A stretch of DNA of 64,000 nt from contig CAKPDP010000002.1 of assembly GCA_934149105.1 (NCBI GenBank), forward strand, positions 49,700 through 113,699. Reading direction: 5' to 3'. Each line of letters opens with the position of its first letter. Position 1 is the stretch's first letter. This document shows positions 28,045 through 37,271 of the stretch, in pieces. The notes under the pieces are model-generated. The model had not been told where the DNA came from. It searched no databases and saw only the letters and a list, made by a program, of their open reading frames with translations. A program made the translations under genes and the position numbers. The stretch is from an uncultured Bacilli bacterium (lineage in GTDB: Bacteria > Bacillota_I > Bacilli_A > RF39 > UBA660).

Positions 28045-28305
28045 ATGAATATATATTTGATAGAACAGTACGTTAATAAAATTACAAAGAAAGATATAAA
28101 TAAATTTTTTCTGAATAGAGGAATTAATTTAACAAAAAGAGAATTAGACTGTTTATATGATCATTTAAAGAAAGATTATAAAACATTTATTTATGGTAAT
28201 CAGAGAGCAATAATGGATGAAATAAAAAAAGAAGTAGAGCCTAATACTTATAATCAGTTAGAAATGCTCTACTATCAATATAAAGATAAATTAAATTTTA
28301 ATTAA
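28045..28305 (+). CDS. Small hypothetical protein
   Basis: 86 aa ORF on the plus strand, divergent from the PBP; no recognisable motif. Confidence 0.3.
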   Translation: MNIYLIEQYVNKITKKDINKFFLNRGINLTKRELDCLYDHLKKDYKTFIYGNQRAIMDEIKKEVEPNTYNQLEMLYYQYKDKLNFN

Positions 28306-28890
28306 TTTTCAGAATTAACTTCGTAACCATTTTTTATTACTAGGACTAAACCTTTTAGTTTAGAGTTAGTAGTTTTAAGATTAAATTTACGATAGTCATA
28401 TTTTAAGTATTCGTCATCAGTAGTAAGATAATAGTGATCAGAAAAGACTTTTTTATCTATATCTTCTACTATTTCTTTTAAATCCATATAGCCGGTATCA
28501 TCGATCATTCCAAGACCAGATCCATCAATAATCCTTTGATAACGATAACATAAACTATTTTTTCTTCTCTTGATCCTAAATAAGTTATAGTAAAATCATC
28601 GGGTGTTCCAAGATCATATTCCATTTCTAGTTTGTCATTCTCATTTAATTTAAGATTAGTTAGTCTAGTTTTAGAAGCGTATTGATAATCAGGAAAATCT
28701 GATAAATCATTAAAACTACTGTATTTATCATTTTTATAAGTTATGTTATAAGAATGATACGCTAAGGAATTAAAGCTTGCTAAGATAGTATAGGCCAGAT
28801 CGGCAATGGTACTATTAGAATTTACTTCTATTTACGCCAAATTTTAGTTTCTAAATCTTTGATCCCAATTTCAAATAGAAAAACTTCATT
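28302..28890 (-). pseudogene. Disrupted pRiA4b ORF-3-like family gene (in-frame stop plus at least 2 frameshifts)
   Basis: Three consecutive minus-strand frames read MNEVFLFEIGIKDLETKIWRK* / EVNSNSTIADLAYTILASF...LEMEYDLGTPDDFTITYLG... / ...MIDDTGYMDLKEIVEDIDKKVFSDHYY...; the IWRK motif and the acidic DFxxxWEHEI-like segment resemble the PRiA4_ORF3 domain. Confidence 0.45.
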
Positions 28891-28988
28891 CATAATATTT
28901 TTCCTCCTTTATTATGAAATTTAGGTTAAATACTGGTTGTTGGTATTATTAAATAATAGCAAAATGAGAAAAAAGCAACTAAAAAATA

Positions 28989-29037
28989 AGTTATCGACCA
29001 CTTTTTGGTGCTTGTATGTCAAAAGTGATCGATAACT
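28989..29037. repeat. 17 bp inverted repeat (AGTTATCGACCACTTTT ... AAAAGTGATCGATAACT, one mismatch) with a 14 nt loop, flanked by A/T runs
   Basis: Read directly from the sequence; could act as a bidirectional terminator-like hairpin. Confidence 0.5.
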
Positions 29038-29240
29038 CATGCTTTTTTTATGATTTTTCAATATTTTATTTTAAATCTTCTTTATTATAAATAAAATCTA
29101 CTATATTAACATTATTTATTCCGTTTATATTTTTCTAATTGAAATTCTATAAATAACCTAAGTGTTGAATGATAATCTTTTTGTTATATTTTTTTATTAA
29201 TATTATTTATTTTTTATCGTAATACTATACAAGTTAAAAT

Positions 29241-29308
29241 ACCGGGCTGACACCGTTGGTGTTGTTCGCATTGTTGTTGTTGAAGTTGTTAGGCGAACCC
29301 GACCACCA
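29241..29308 (-). repeat. Template-repeat-like, AAC-codon-rich partial copy of the 3' end of the 29604..31403 gene (DGR TR-like; shorter than the VR)
   Basis: Minus-strand TGGTGGTCGGGTTCGCCTAACAACTTCAACAACAACAATGCGAACAACACCAACGGTGTCAGCCCGGTA aligns with the gene 3' end; most mismatches fall on adenines of this copy. Confidence 0.5.
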
Positions 29309-29603
29309 CACAAGCAGAGAGAACTCGGGATCCAGAATTTTTTTACGGTTTAATCCTAAGTTAATCTATATTAAACTACATAATTATATAGCTTAACCCA
29401 ATTTTTCTAAAAAAGTTTTCCTTTCTTTAAAATTCTAACATCTAATTCTAGCAAGTTCATTCTGAACTTGCTATCTCCCACCCGGCCACCTTTATATATT
29501 TTTATTATCTTTGTTTTTACTATGCTGTTAGTTTGCTTGCCCTCAAAGGGTTTCTCGGGCTTTTTCTCAGTCTAAAGAGTACTGGGACTTAGTTTTGATT
29601 TTT

Positions 29604-31403
29604 TTACGAAATTACGTATGGACTCGTGCTAGTTCCCGATCCTGAGGTGCCTATCCCAGGGGCTAAAGAAACGACCGGCCGAACCCCGTTGGTGGACCTC
29701 ACAGAGTCGCTATCGTAGAGGCCACCACGGGAACCCACGAACCAGGCGTACGCATAGCCGTTGCTGTTGAAGTGGGAAGGCGAACCCGGCCACCAAGAAT
29801 CGTTATTGTTTAAATAATAAGTAGAATTGTCGGACTTGTAGAAGTGGTATATTCCACCTGCATACATTACCTCATCAATTGTTATTAAACCTACAGGATA
29901 TGTAAGTTTTCCATTTCCTATACTAGAGTCTACTGTAAAGGCATCATTACTATTACTACAGTCTAGACTTGGTTTATGGGTTTCTGTTCTAGTATTACCT
30001 GCAAAAGTATTATCATCAGTACTAGAAGTATCTTTACTTAGTAAAGGTCCACTAATAATAGTTCGGTCATTGCAATAAATTGTATCTTCTAACTTATCTG
30101 TATAACTAGTCATATTAGTCTTATACCAATTATCAATTGTTGTTTTTATTTTAGAATCTGTAGTATTAGTAAACATCTTTGTTTTAGCCGTTTCAATATT
30201 ATCTCCTCCAGTTAGGGTTAAATAAGATACCCTTGAACTATTTCCAAAATAATGAATATAATAAACACTACTACAAGTAGCACTAGTACTTAGACAAGTA
30301 TAATGATATTTTGTTGCCAAAGTTTTATAATCTGTACTCCAACTACTACTAGTCATCGTATCTTTTAAGGTATATGTACCATTAGAATATGTTACATCAT
30401 TTCCATAGACATAAGTATCAGTGACACTACTCATATCTTTAAAAAATGAAACATATCTAGTTCCATACATATAGCCGACATCGGCAGGACTACTACTATA
30501 ATTATTATTAAAAGCACTAGTTCCTATTTGAGTTGCTTCTCCAGTTGTATTAGTACACTGATTATCAGTAGGTGTTCCATTGTAAATCATTTTAATGCCA
30601 CCAGTATCAGTAGTTCTGATTATTTTCCAACAAAAGCCTGCGAATAAGACATTATTGTTAGTTACAGCTCCTCTAAAATAATAAATAGGATATTGATCTG
30701 AAGCCGTACTACTTAACATGTATAATCCTTTACCATTAGTATCACTACTAATCTTTGAAAAATCAATATTATTATCTAATTCATAATCTAAAGTTACAGT
30801 ATCATCAAATAATGACACCGTACTATCTAATGGTTTAGATAAAGAGTTAGAGCCTGTATTAAATTCTACGATGCCATTAAAACTTCCTTTATCTATATCA
30901 TTTTGTTCAGTATTAGTATCATTTAAATAAACCATTATATAGTAAGTTTTACTAGATCTAGCTTTAATAGTATCTTGTTTAACTAAACTAGATCTAGACA
31001 TACCTCTTTTAGCATTCTCACTGTATGTGGTTTGAGTAGATAATTCTGTCCATTTAAGATTCTTAGAAGTACTACTAGTTAAAGTAACATAACCATCGAC
31101 ATTTACTTTAACACTACCTTCGTTATTTACAGTAATACTATAAATCTGACAAGCTGTATAGCCATTACTATCCTGACATTGGGCTTTTGCAGCATCATTT
31201 AATAAGCTTTCTTTAAGTGGTATTAATTTATCATCTTTAGTAAGTAATTTAACATTCATAGATATTTTAACATTAGCAATACTACCACTAATAGCATTAT
31301 TACTACTACTAACACTAACACTAAAATAAGCATATGTACCAGAAATAAAAGCTACTACAATAGCCATAACAAAAACTAGTAAATATAATTTTTTACCTTT
31401 CAT
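29604..31403 (-). CDS. Secreted protein with a SipW-cognate (TasA/camelysin-type) signal peptide and a DUF1566/C-type-lectin-like C-terminal domain; putative DGR variable protein
   Basis: N-terminus MKGKKLYLLVFVMAIVVAFISGTYAYFS; C-terminus ...YYLNNNDSWWPGSPSHFNSNGYAYAWFVGSRGGLYDSDSVRSTNGVRPVVSL; the last roughly 190 nt are strikingly GC-rich. Confidence 0.6.
   Translation of the reverse strand: MKGKKLYLLVFVMAIVVAFISGTYAYFSVSVSSSNNAISGSIANVKISMNVKLLTKDDKLIPLKESLLNDAAKAQCQDSNGYTACQIYSITVNNEGSVKVNVDGYVTLTSSTSKNLKWTELSTQTTYSENAKRGMSRSSLVKQDTIKARSSKTYYIMVYLNDTNTEQNDIDKGSFNGIVEFNTGSNSLSKPLDSTVSLFDDTVTLDYELDNNIDFSKISSDTNGKGLYMLSSTASDQYPIYYFRGAVTNNNVLFAGFCWKIIRTTDTGGIKMIYNGTPTDNQCTNTTGEATQIGTSAFNNNYSSSPADVGYMYGTRYVSFFKDMSSVTDTYVYGNDVTYSNGTYTLKDTMTSSSWSTDYKTLATKYHYTCLSTSATCSSVYYIHYFGNSSRVSYLTLTGGDNIETAKTKMFTNTTDSKIKTTIDNWYKTNMTSYTDKLEDTIYCNDRTIISGPLLSKDTSSTDDNTFAGNTRTETHKPSLDCSNSNDAFTVDSSIGNGKLTYPVGLITIDEVMYAGGIYHFYKSDNSTYYLNNNDSWWPGSPSHFNSNGYAYAWFVGSRGGLYDSDSVRSTNGVRPVVSLAPGIGTSGSGTSTSPYVIS
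29674..29794 (-). other. Putative DGR variable region (VR) at the 3' end of the 29604..31403 gene
   Basis: Homologous to the TR-like copy at 29241..29308; the differences sit mostly where that copy has A; a GC-rich IMH-like element GGGGTTCGGCCGGTCG lies at the 3' boundary. Confidence 0.45.
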
Positions 31404-31597: not shown

Positions 31598-31855
31598 TTA
31601 AGAATAGAAAAATAAAAACTCAATTGTGGTAGCTGCTATTGACGGTAAAAAAATCACTAAAAAGAAATTTAGTGACCTTCCTGCTTTTGTTAAGTACCAT
31701 TCGCCTTGTTCTTCTTTTAAAAATCCTCTGCTGTCAAAATCTCGCTCTTTTCTATCATACTCTAAGCTTCTTATTTGATCTGATGTTAATTTTATTGAGG
31801 CATCTCCCTGTCTAAAATAAACTTCATCTTTGTTAGTTCTTACAATATAATTCAT
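31598..31855 (-). CDS. Hypothetical ORF, possibly the terminal piece of a decayed gene
   Basis: No RBS; the reading frame is open upstream of the ATG; frame-shifted coding remnants continue to about 31990. Confidence 0.2.
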   Translation of the reverse strand: MNYIVRTNKDEVYFRQGDASIKLTSDQIRSLEYDRKERDFDSRGFLKEEQGEWYLTKAGRSLNFFLVIFLPSIAATTIEFLFFYS

Positions 31856-36724: not shown

Positions 36725-37271
36725 TCAGGAATACGAGTTGTGGAATTTTGTTTTAAAAGTTGACAAGCTTTTAGGGATTAGTCCTTTCGAAATAATATTA
36801 TGTTGTGTCATTAATTTGATTATTTTTAAGGTTCTAATTACTTCAATGTTATTATTTTCAGAGCTGATTTTTAATCTGCTATCGCCAGTAGCAAGAAGAT
36901 AATCTTCTTTATCAATTTTACTCCAATCAATAACTTTGTGAAGTTCTTTTTTAAGATCATATCTAGTCAAATACAGGTGGAACACCAGTTCCTTCATGGA
37001 AGGGATGGGCAGTGTTCATTTCAACGTATTTTTTTATTATTTCTTCAAGGGTACTTTGAGGCATTTCATCTATTTTGGATAAGATATCTTTTAAATATAA
37101 AGCTGAAGCAAATCTAAAGTTACCTTTAGCTAGATTAACGGTTCTAATTTCAACGGCAAATTCAGGTATTTTGCTGGTATCAAATAATTCTAAGGCCTTT
37201 AATTTAGTAATTCGTTCTTCTTCTTTGGCCAATTCTATTTCATCATGAAGCCCTAATTTATTTTCTAACAT
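36725..37271 (-). pseudogene. Fic/Doc family protein interrupted by a frameshift inside the catalytic motif
   Basis: ORF1 ends ...[15 protein letters not shown] and ORF2 continues in the other frame as [14 protein letters not shown]...; together they give the Fic motif HPFxEG(N/T)G followed by the expected hydrophobic helix. Confidence 0.55.

What the first reader, a model, noticed from the sequence alone, without database searches (positions are those of the whole stretch)
29236..29830. Diversity-generating retroelement (DGR)-like VR/TR pair on a SipW-secreted DUF1566/CLec-like protein, with no reverse transcriptase in the window
The 3' end of the 599-aa secreted protein gene (29604..31403, minus strand) encodes ...DSWWPGSPSHFNSNGYAYAWFVGSRGGLYDSDSVRSTNGVRPVV.... 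About 300 bp downstream of the stop, at 29241..29308, lies a second, shorter copy of this segment. In gene sense it reads TGGTGG TCG GGT TCG CCT AAC AAC TTC AAC AAC AAC AAT GCG AAC AAC ACC AAC GGT GTC AGC CCG GTA, so it is built almost entirely of AAC/AAT codons. In the aligned 5' block, six of the seven mismatches to the gene copy fall on adenines of this downstream copy (AAC to TCC, CAC, AGC; AAT to TAT; AAC to TAC). That is the adenine-specific mutagenesis signature of a DGR template repeat versus its variable region. The few non-A mismatches cluster at the 3' boundary, in a GC-rich element (GGGGTTCGGCCGGTCG in the gene versus GGTGTCAGCCCGGTAT in the copy). This is where a DGR has its IMH and IMH* elements, which differ by design. 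The protein C-terminus (WW.SP...AYAW.V...G......VRPVV) resembles the DUF1566/C-type-lectin scaffold that DGRs classically diversify. Both copies are more than 55% GC in a roughly 27% GC genome. Two things do not fit a functional DGR. The TR-like copy lacks about 54 nt that are present in the VR, and no RT or avd gene lies within the 64 kb window. So this is either a DGR fossil or the target locus of a DGR whose TR-RT module sits elsewhere in the genome.
Basis: partly seen in the sequence, partly recalled or inferred. Interest (0 to 1): 0.85.

Follow-up and report, generated by a model that had tools for sequence, protein, structure and literature searches.

The report
Decayed diversity-generating retroelement with frozen target
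This is the wreck of a diversity-generating retroelement: a surface-protein gene keeps the hypervariable end the element once wrote, and a shortened template copy lies beside it, but the reverse transcriptase is gone and the variable end no longer changes between strains.

Summary
The 3' end of the 599-aa gene (VR, 29669-29795, minus strand) has a shorter, AAC-rich copy about 360 nt downstream (29236-29308). Mismatches fall mainly on adenines of that copy: 10 of 21 A sites versus 4 of 48 non-A sites (p=5e-4).

The copy is a true DGR template repeat. It matches the TRs of intact cassettes in other gut Firmicutes (33 nt at 100%). It also follows a spacer that is colinear with theirs. Those cassettes read target-spacer-TR-avd-RT.

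The window copy lacks about 51 nt of the TR interior. It differs from its VR by a 3-nt indel and four non-A mismatches. Unrelated AT-rich DNA and a pseudogene follow it, not avd-RT.

No RT, Avd or second TR was found in the 64-kb window or within 10 kb of five other paralogs in related assemblies. Across 72 distinct homologous proteins there are only seven VR alleles. None varies inside the VR (0 of 39-42 columns), while 38-259 columns vary outside it.

Verdict: a fossil DGR home locus with a frozen VR. The scaffold is DUF6273-like and C-type-lectin-like, not DUF1566. An RT elsewhere in the genome was not excluded directly. This is a new member of a known kind, of modest interest.

The parts
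29604..31403 (-). Target gene, 599 aa. It has an N-terminal TM/SipW-like signal (GTYAYFS), a beta-sandwich domain, a conserved middle domain and a C-terminal DUF6273-like (C-type-lectin-like) domain that carries the VR.
29669..29795 (-). Variable region (WWPGSP...GVRPVV, codons 537-578; the block runs one codon past GVRPVV). It is GC-rich (62%) and carries one codon (GGC) more than every intact TR and every other VR aligned.
   Evidence: It is identical in 9 distinct proteins and in 3 independent DNA sources.
29669..29694 (-). 3' GC-rich end of the VR, with the boundary where VR and TR diverge (GGTC|GTTTCTTTAGCC in the VR, GGTA|TTTTAAC in the TR). This is the expected place of IMH and IMH*.
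   Evidence: Intact cassettes diverge at the same point. Here three extra non-A mismatches lie upstream of the boundary.
29309..29603 (-). Non-coding spacer between the target stop codon and the TR. It is colinear with the spacer of the intact cassettes L009, L003 and L007. It includes the conserved motif GGGTTAARCTA...ATATAGATTAACTTAGGA. The GC hairpins after the stop codon are degraded here.
   Evidence: Alignment A4, blastn, no Rfam match.
29450..29472 (-). Hairpin AGCAAGTTCA-gaa-TGAACTTGCT inside the spacer. Each intact cassette has a hairpin of different sequence at the equivalent position.
   Evidence: Read. Not tested for covariation.
29236..29308 (-). Template-repeat remnant, 73 nt, with 11 AAC/AAT codons. 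It has an internal deletion of about 51 nt relative to intact TRs.
   Evidence: Identity to the L003/L007 TR is 100% over 33 nt. Mismatches to the VRs of all six paralogs concentrate at its adenines.
29256..29266 (-). Deletion junction inside the TR remnant (GCGAAC|AACACCAAC). It lies within AAC repeats, so the exact breakpoint is ambiguous. This is consistent with slippage or microhomology deletion.
   Evidence: Alignments A1. The mechanism is inferred.
28911..29235 (-). AT-rich non-coding DNA (13-28% GC in 100-nt windows inside it) that occupies the place of avd-RT. It has no similarity to the TR-avd leader, to avd or to RT of the intact cassettes. It contains an inverted repeat at 28981-29045.

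Best explanation
The locus is the degenerate 'home' cassette of a diversity-generating retroelement.

Inferred history: an ancestor carried target(VR)-spacer-TR-avd-RT here, the layout that related gut Firmicutes still have. RT/Avd copied the TR RNA with adenine-specific errors. The cDNA replaced the VR of this gene and of several paralogous surface-protein genes elsewhere in the chromosome.

Shown: in the lineage of the window, avd and RT have been lost from downstream of the TR. The TR itself has lost about 51 nt between AAC repeats. TR and VR have since drifted apart by a 3-nt indel and four non-A substitutions.

Shown at the population level: the VR still carries the adenine-mutagenesis imprint but is now an ordinary, fixed coding sequence. 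The protein remains an intact, probably secreted, lectin-like binding protein with one frozen specificity.
For: 1. The repeat pair is strongly A-biased: 10 of 21 A sites versus 4 of 48 non-A sites.

2. The downstream copy is a bona fide TR. A degenerate TR pattern retrieved intact cassettes L003 and L004 and L007 and L008. An RT look-up retrieved L009-L012. In these, a homologous TR of about 120-125 nt is followed by avd and by an RT:
- bAvd PF22296 scores 1e-6 and NF033474 scores 2e-5, both below their curated cutoffs.
- RVT_1 scores 1e-17, and the RT carries IGAMxSQ and YMDD motifs.
- The RT is about 30% identical to phage RTs; matching records include Bordetella and Faecalibacterium phages and phage nd12.
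- Control: L003 TR versus L007 VR gives 19 of 35 A sites and 3 of 84 non-A sites mismatched.

3. The window spacer is colinear with the spacers of those cassettes. The TR remnant is 100% identical to their TR over 33 nt.

4. The remnant lacks the central ~51 nt of every intact TR.

5. No Avd or RT similarity exists in the window. None was found within 10 kb of five other paralog loci recovered from related gut metagenome assemblies. No TR was found there either, apart from the remnant in the window, L005 and L006. Shared contigs link the paralogs in two sets; one genome for all six is inferred.

6. The VR is frozen:
- A 1551-nt stretch spanning the 3' end of the gene (with the VR), the remnant and the downstream DNA is 100% identical in two other samples, including a Hadza metagenome.
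- The 72 distinct proteins carry only 7 VR alleles.
- Variable columns inside the VR number 0 of 39-42, against 38-259 outside it.

7. The intact L009 cassette belongs to a different species: PFL genes are 75% identical at nucleotide level and GC is 25% versus 30%. Its TR is not cognate to this VR.
Against: - The whole genome of the source organism could not be searched, so an RT-TR module elsewhere is not directly excluded.
- Assembled consensus sequences cannot show low-frequency VR variants.
- The three DNA sources with identical VRs are also identical across 1.5 kb and so may be near-clonal. The protein comparison across divergent backbones covers this only partly.
- VR lengths differ among paralogs by multiples of 3 nt. 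A single ancestral TR therefore cannot explain all VRs without later indels or more than one TR.
- L004, which has an intact RT, also shows 14 of 85 non-A mismatches. Non-A mismatches alone therefore do not prove decay.
Confidence: 0.8

Rival explanations
1. Remote target of a living DGR. A functional RT-avd-TR module sits elsewhere in the same genome and still diversifies this VR and its paralogs. The truncated TR beside the gene is an irrelevant relic.
For: - Multi-target DGRs with remote targets are established (Wu et al. 2018, PMC5758913).
- The family has at least 6 dispersed paralogs with DGR-imprinted VRs.
- The adjacent TR is clearly not the present template of this VR.
- The whole genome was not searchable.
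Against: - Every VR allele is invariant across 9-14 distinct protein backbones and across cohorts, while the rest of the gene varies.
- No RT, Avd or TR lies within 10 kb of any of six paralog loci or in the 64-kb window.
- None of the 120 listed RT homologues shares a contig with genes of the window species; the single equal contig length (2082) cannot hold both genes.
- VR lengths differ between paralogs, which does not fit one active TR.
Confidence: 0.12
2. Minimal functional TR. The 73-nt copy is itself still used as a template, with an RT supplied in trans, for example by a phage. It would rewrite only the flanks of the VR.
For: - The copy keeps both ends of a TR, including the 3' boundary where TR and VR diverge.
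- A promoter-like site lies upstream of it at 29411-29383.
Against: - Homing from this template would give a VR shorter by 51-54 nt. No homologue has such a VR.
- Three non-A mismatches lie in the GC-rich 3' block, which is identical between VR and TR in the intact cassettes.
- The sequence downstream of the TR, present in the intact cassettes before avd, is absent here.
- The VR is frozen.
Confidence: 0.03
3. Not a DGR element. The downstream copy is a decayed fragment of a paralogous gene end, or a chance low-complexity match.
For: Paralogs are numerous and appear to recombine.
Against: - The copy consists of AAC/AAT codons exactly where the VRs vary.
- It matches independent TRs better than any VR (33 nt at 100%).
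- It follows a spacer homologous to VR-TR spacers.
- Divergence from all six VRs is A-biased, with p from 6e-7 to 2e-4 in five of six.
Confidence: 0.02

Closest known systems
Avd-containing DGR cassettes with a MutS-like (MSL) accessory, 'Architecture D' of Wu et al. 2018 (PMC5758913), as seen here in L009-L012, L003, L007 and L004
   Same: - A homologous target family.
- The VR lies at the C-terminal end of the gene.
- The VR-TR spacer is homologous.
- The TR is homologous, with AAC-rich codons and the same 5' and 3' ends.
- The order is target, then TR.
   Different: - The window has no avd, no RT and no MSL.
- Its TR lacks about 51 nt.
- TR and VR differ by an indel and by non-A substitutions.
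- The VR does not vary in the population.
Bordetella phage BPP-1 DGR (mtd-avd-TR-brt), the reference system
   Same: - Adenine-specific TR-to-VR differences.
- The VR sits at the 3' end of a gene for a C-type-lectin-like binding domain.
- A GC-rich 3' VR end is followed by the point where TR and VR diverge.
   Different: - The gene order in the relatives is target-TR-avd-RT, not target-avd-TR-RT.
- The setting is a chromosomal surface protein, not a phage tail fibre.
- The scaffold is DUF6273-like, not Mtd.
- The element here is defunct.
DUF6273 DGR targets of gut phages: tentaclins of phages nd4/nd12 (PMC10743442) and Faecalibacterium prophage targets (PMC11792537)
   Same: - The RT of the related intact cassettes is about 32% identical to the region of phage nd12 that it matches.
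   Different: - Here the domain is the C-terminus of a ~600-aa chromosomal protein with a SipW-like signal.
- The Pfam match is only marginal: 2 of 51 family members at E<=0.01.
- No phage genes lie nearby.
N-terminal DUF6273 domain of the Thomasclavelia ramosa IgA peptidase (PDB 9qa6; PMC12402451)
   Different: - Identity is 13-14%.
- No peptidase domain is present here.
- Nothing retrieved here links the IgA peptidase to a DGR; this is the annotator's own assessment.

Membership tests
Diversity-generating retroelement (functional cassette) | A DGR-clade reverse transcriptase encoded with or near the TR | tested here: not met
   No YxDD ORF in the 64 kb. tblastn with the L003 and L004 RTs gives best E 0.48. 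None within 10 kb of five other paralog loci. The rest of the genome was not searchable.
Diversity-generating retroelement (functional cassette) | A TR/VR repeat pair whose differences are at TR adenines | tested here: met
   10 of 21 A sites versus 4 of 48 non-A sites mismatched, p=5e-4. The same bias holds against five of the six paralog VRs.
Diversity-generating retroelement (functional cassette) | TR and VR are colinear and of equal length, with essentially no non-A mismatches | tested here: not met
   A 51-nt gap plus a 3-nt gap, and 4 non-A mismatches.
Diversity-generating retroelement (functional cassette) | An accessory gene (avd or equivalent) | tested here: not met
   tblastn with the L003 and L004 Avd gives best E 0.85. 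Avd is present in all intact relatives.
Diversity-generating retroelement (functional cassette) | A GC-rich 3' VR end identical in the TR, followed by diverging IMH and IMH* | tested here: inconclusive
   The divergence point is conserved (GGTC|GTTTC in the VR, GGTA|TTTTA in the TR). However, 3 non-A mismatches lie in the GC block, which is identical in the L004 and L009 pairs.
Diversity-generating retroelement (functional cassette) | VR hypervariability between strains or within populations | tested here: not met
   0 of 42 VR columns vary among 9 distinct proteins with this allele, while 206 of 591 columns outside it vary. The result is the same for the five other allele groups of 9-14 proteins; a seventh allele has only 4 proteins. 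The DNA is 100% identical in L005 and L006. Read-level data were not available.
Diversity-generating retroelement (descent from one) | Homology of spacer and TR to cassettes that do encode avd and RT | tested here: met
DUF1566 (PF07603, Lcl C-terminal domain) | A Pfam model match | tested here: not met
   [not shown]
DUF6273 (PF19789) | A Pfam model match covering the VR-bearing C-terminus | tested here: inconclusive
   [not shown]
C-type-lectin-like fold (DGR target scaffold) | Structural similarity of the VR domain to CTLD, FGE or TvpA structures | tested here: inconclusive
   [not shown]
SipW-dependent signal peptide proteins (TIGR04088) | A model match at the N-terminus and a cognate sipW gene | tested here: inconclusive
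   17.2 bits against a cutoff of 19, E 0.004, on the first 60 aa. There is no SipW homologue in the window. L004 does have sipW and a BsaA-like gene beside its cassette.

The most novel reading that the evidence does not exclude
After losing its reverse transcriptase, this lineage may have kept a fixed library of at least seven DGR-written VR alleles. These are spread over six or more paralogous surface-protein genes. The lineage may now vary its surface by recombination or gene conversion between paralogs rather than by retro-mutagenesis.

The hints are these:
- The same VR allele occurs on different N-terminal backbones.
- One Hadza contig (L006) joins the upstream half of one paralog locus to the downstream half of the window locus.

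Assembly chimeras across the conserved middle of the genes would give the same picture.
Probability: 0.15. Interest if true: 0.55.

Novelty: new member of a known kind. Interest (0 to 1): 0.3.

Why it matters
The locus is a clean, datable example of how a DGR dies. The RT/avd module is removed, the TR is eroded by deletion between its own AAC repeats, and the VR is left as a frozen record of the last round of mutagenesis.

There are two practical consequences. First, DGR finders that need an RT will miss such loci. Second, finders keyed on A-biased repeats alone would wrongly call this one active. The population test used here, VR invariance against variation in the rest of the gene, separates the two cases.

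The locus also documents a large family of DUF6273-like surface proteins (over 3000 homologues) in uncultured low-GC gut Firmicutes. These are, or were, DGR targets.

Nothing about the mechanism itself departs from what is known of DGRs.

Tried and rejected
- Pfam and NCBIfam on the whole protein gave no hits.
- A profile search of solved structures by sequence gave only noise.
- Foldseek with the full model returned only generic beta-sandwich matches, presumably to the N-terminal sandwich domain.
- Rfam on 28300-29900 gave nothing relevant.
- The terminator scan found none.
- The viral-contig scan for the TR pattern gave 0 hits.
- Exact-sequence look-ups failed for the window protein, P0004 and P0006.
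- I tried to place an RT in the same genome by comparing 'longest contig' lengths between RT homologues and target paralogs. There was no true match; the single equal value (2082) cannot hold both genes.
- I tested the L009 TR as the cognate template of the window VR and rejected it: there are many non-A mismatches, and the host is a different species.
- I considered the downstream copy as a paralog pseudogene fragment and rejected it.
Full report
**Observation**

On the minus strand, ORF 29604..31403 encodes a 599-aa protein. Its last ~60 codons include WWPGSPSHFNSNGYAYAWFVGSRGGLYDSDSVRSTNGVRPVV. This stretch lies at 29669-29795 and is 62% GC, in a window of 29.9% GC.

About 360 nt downstream of this region, at 29236-29308, lies TGGTGGTCGGGTTCGCCTAACAACTTCAACAACAACAATGCGAACAACACCAACGGTGTCAGCCCGGTATTTT.

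- The repeat finder pairs the two as a 36-nt block (86%) and a 26-nt block (77%). Their spacings differ by 54 nt.
- A gapped alignment gives one 3-nt gap and one 51-nt gap.
- In the aligned 69 nt, 10 of 21 adenines of the downstream copy are mismatched, against 4 of 48 other bases (Fisher p=5e-4).

Only small numbers are off: the genome is 30% GC rather than 27%, and the short copy is 49% GC.

**What the short copy is**

A degenerate pattern for the 5' part of the copy (WW.GSPNNFNNN) found two loci in one-genome-per-species GTDB contigs and two in metagenomes.

L004 comes from an uncultured Bacilli MAG. L003 comes from a 2.4-kb contig binned as Oribacterium. Both read: 3' end of a homologous target gene with a VR, then a spacer of ~250-300 nt, then a TR of about 120-125 nt, then ~240-260 nt, then a 122-aa Avd-like gene, then a 444-494-aa RT.

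- The RTs match RVT_1 (1e-17) and carry IGAMxSQ and YMDD motifs.
- The Avd genes give sub-threshold bAvd / DivGenRetAVD hits.
- The RT is ~30% identical to phage RTs; matching records include Bordetella and Faecalibacterium phages and phage nd12.

An RT homologue search followed by a context look-up gave the same cassette in long chromosomal contigs, L009-L012.

These pairs behave as DGRs should. L003 TR against L007 VR has 19 of 35 A sites and 3 of 84 non-A sites mismatched.

The window's short copy aligns to these TRs at both ends and is 100% identical to the L003/L007 TR over 33 nt. The window's VR-to-TR spacer is colinear with theirs and includes the conserved motif GGGTTAARCTA...ATATAGATTAACTTAGGA. 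The copy is thus a genuine TR at its canonical place in a cassette of known architecture. It is not a paralog fragment.

**What is wrong with it**

- Every intact TR has ~51 nt between GCGAAC and the last AAC...GG codons. The window copy lacks them, and the junction lies within AAC repeats.
- The window VR carries one codon more than any TR or any other VR.
- In the intact L004 and L009 pairs the GC-rich 3' block is identical in VR and TR, and divergence starts just after it. In the window, three non-A mismatches lie inside that block. The divergence point itself is conserved.
- Downstream of the remnant, homology to the intact cassettes stops. There is AT-rich DNA, an inverted repeat, and then a frameshifted PRiA4_ORF3 pseudogene.
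- tblastn with both Avd and both RT proteins finds nothing in the 64 kb. No ORF has a YxDD motif.

**Is an RT acting from elsewhere?**

The protein belongs to a large family of 3331 hits. Its closest relatives fall into a few groups that differ chiefly in the VR.

Genomic look-ups place these paralogs in six different housekeeping neighbourhoods: window/L005, L001, L002, L013, L014 and L015/L016. Shared contigs link them in two sets, and one genome for all six is inferred. None has an RT, an Avd or a TR within 10 kb. Only the window locus, with its copies in L005 and L006, has the TR remnant and a ~1.1-kb non-coding gap.

The remnant's mismatches to all six VRs are concentrated at its adenines. 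The flanks of the L001 VR match it better than the adjacent VR does. The window locus therefore looks like the former home of a multi-target DGR.

The intact L009 cassette is not from this organism. The PFL genes shared by L009 and the window are 75% identical at nucleotide level, GC is 25% against 30%, and the L009 TR is not cognate to this VR.

**Population test**

A 1551-nt stretch was compared across sources. It spans the 3' end of the gene (with the VR), the spacer, the remnant and the downstream DNA. It is 100% identical in a second cohort sample (L005) and in a Hadza metagenome (L006).

Seventy-two distinct protein sequences were compared, drawn from six 90%-identity clusters plus close hits. 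They carry only seven VR alleles.

- Six allele groups have 9-14 distinct proteins each. Within each, no VR column varies (0 of 39-42). The seventh allele (4 proteins) was not scored for columns outside the VR.
- In those six groups, 38-259 columns outside the VR vary, including whole N-terminal swaps.

This is the opposite of what an active DGR produces. VR lengths also differ between paralogs by multiples of 3 nt, which one active TR could not maintain.

**The protein**

- Pfam and NCBIfam give no whole-protein hit.
- The first 60 aa score 17.2 bits on the SipW-type signal model, against a cutoff of 19. No sipW gene is in the window.
- The last 220 aa give a sub-threshold DUF6273 hit exactly over the VR (18.4 bits against 23.5). 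One paralog passes the threshold (24.7 bits).
- DUF1566 and FGE-sulfatase are never hit.

The literature already describes DUF6273 as a DGR target domain. It is reported as C-type-lectin-like (PMC10743442), with the VR at its C-terminal end (PMC11792537).

**Conclusion**

Three things are shown:
- a TR/VR pair of DGR origin;
- a truncated TR, with avd and RT absent locally;
- a VR that is fixed in the sampled population.

Three things are inferred:
- the order of events (loss of RT, then erosion of the TR);
- the microhomology mechanism of the deletion;
- that the six paralogs were once served by this cassette.

Not excluded: an RT-TR module elsewhere in the genome that is silent or rarely active.

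This is a new, decayed member of a known kind of element. It is useful as a worked example of DGR death and of a test that separates imprint from activity, but it is not mechanistically new.

Noticed in passing
window 28302-28910 (-): A frameshifted PRiA4_ORF3-like pseudogene lies directly after the empty avd-RT position. The reading frame breaks after ...KIWRK (about 28846). The frameshift-corrected translation hits PF07929 at 4.6e-16. The sequence is identical in L005 and L006.
   Followed up: partly
L006 4597-6459 compared with L013 and window 29604-31403: A Hadza contig joins the upstream flank and N-terminal half of the L013 paralog to the C-terminal half and downstream flank of the window gene. 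The same VR allele also occurs on different N-terminal backbones in other assemblies. This is either real recombination between paralogs or an assembly chimera across the conserved middle of the genes.
   Followed up: partly
L009 6563-6931; L004 1645-3129 (RT residues ~358-400); L003 1040-2374: The intact relatives carry a MutS-domain-I-like module. In L009 and L007 it is a stand-alone 122-aa ORF upstream of the target (PF01624, 20.8 bits). In L004 the RT has a C-terminal extension that hits PF01624 at 24.6 bits; the L003 RT has a similar-looking C-terminal extension with no Pfam hit. This corresponds to the 'MSL' accessory of Wu et al. 2018. In L009-L012 the RT C-terminal extension is frameshifted (387 aa against 444 aa).
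   Followed up: partly
L009 6165-6428 and 11449-12375: The ~5-kb L009 cassette (MSL-target-TR-avd-RT) is bracketed by a PDDEXK_2 gene downstream and by 96-97%-identical fragments of that gene upstream. This suggests the cassette sits in, or moved with, a duplicated PDDEXK_2 (Rpn-like) element.
   Followed up: no
L007 3111-3268: A second, independent TR lesion. The TR of this L003-like cassette is identical to L003 for 68 nt. It then continues into unrelated AT-rich sequence up to the contig end, although its VR shows a clean A-only pattern against the L003 TR.
   Followed up: no
window 29450-29472 (-) and equivalent positions in L003, L004, L007, L009: Each cassette has a strong hairpin of different sequence at the same place in the VR-TR spacer, ~140-180 nt upstream of the TR. 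The stems are of 7-15 bp. This may be a structural element of the cassette or a terminator of the target gene. Covariation was not tested.
   Followed up: no
window 31598-31855 (-) and 36963-37271 (-): Small ORFs near the target look like gene fragments. One is an 85-aa ORF with no family hit, just upstream of the target. The other is a 102-aa Fic-domain fragment (NF046029, 4e-28, far below the full-length cutoff).
   Followed up: no
L009 1013-2500: A 495-aa ORF a few kb upstream of the L009 cassette shares ~69% nucleotide identity with the conserved middle domain of the target family. It may be a paralog without a VR.
   Followed up: no
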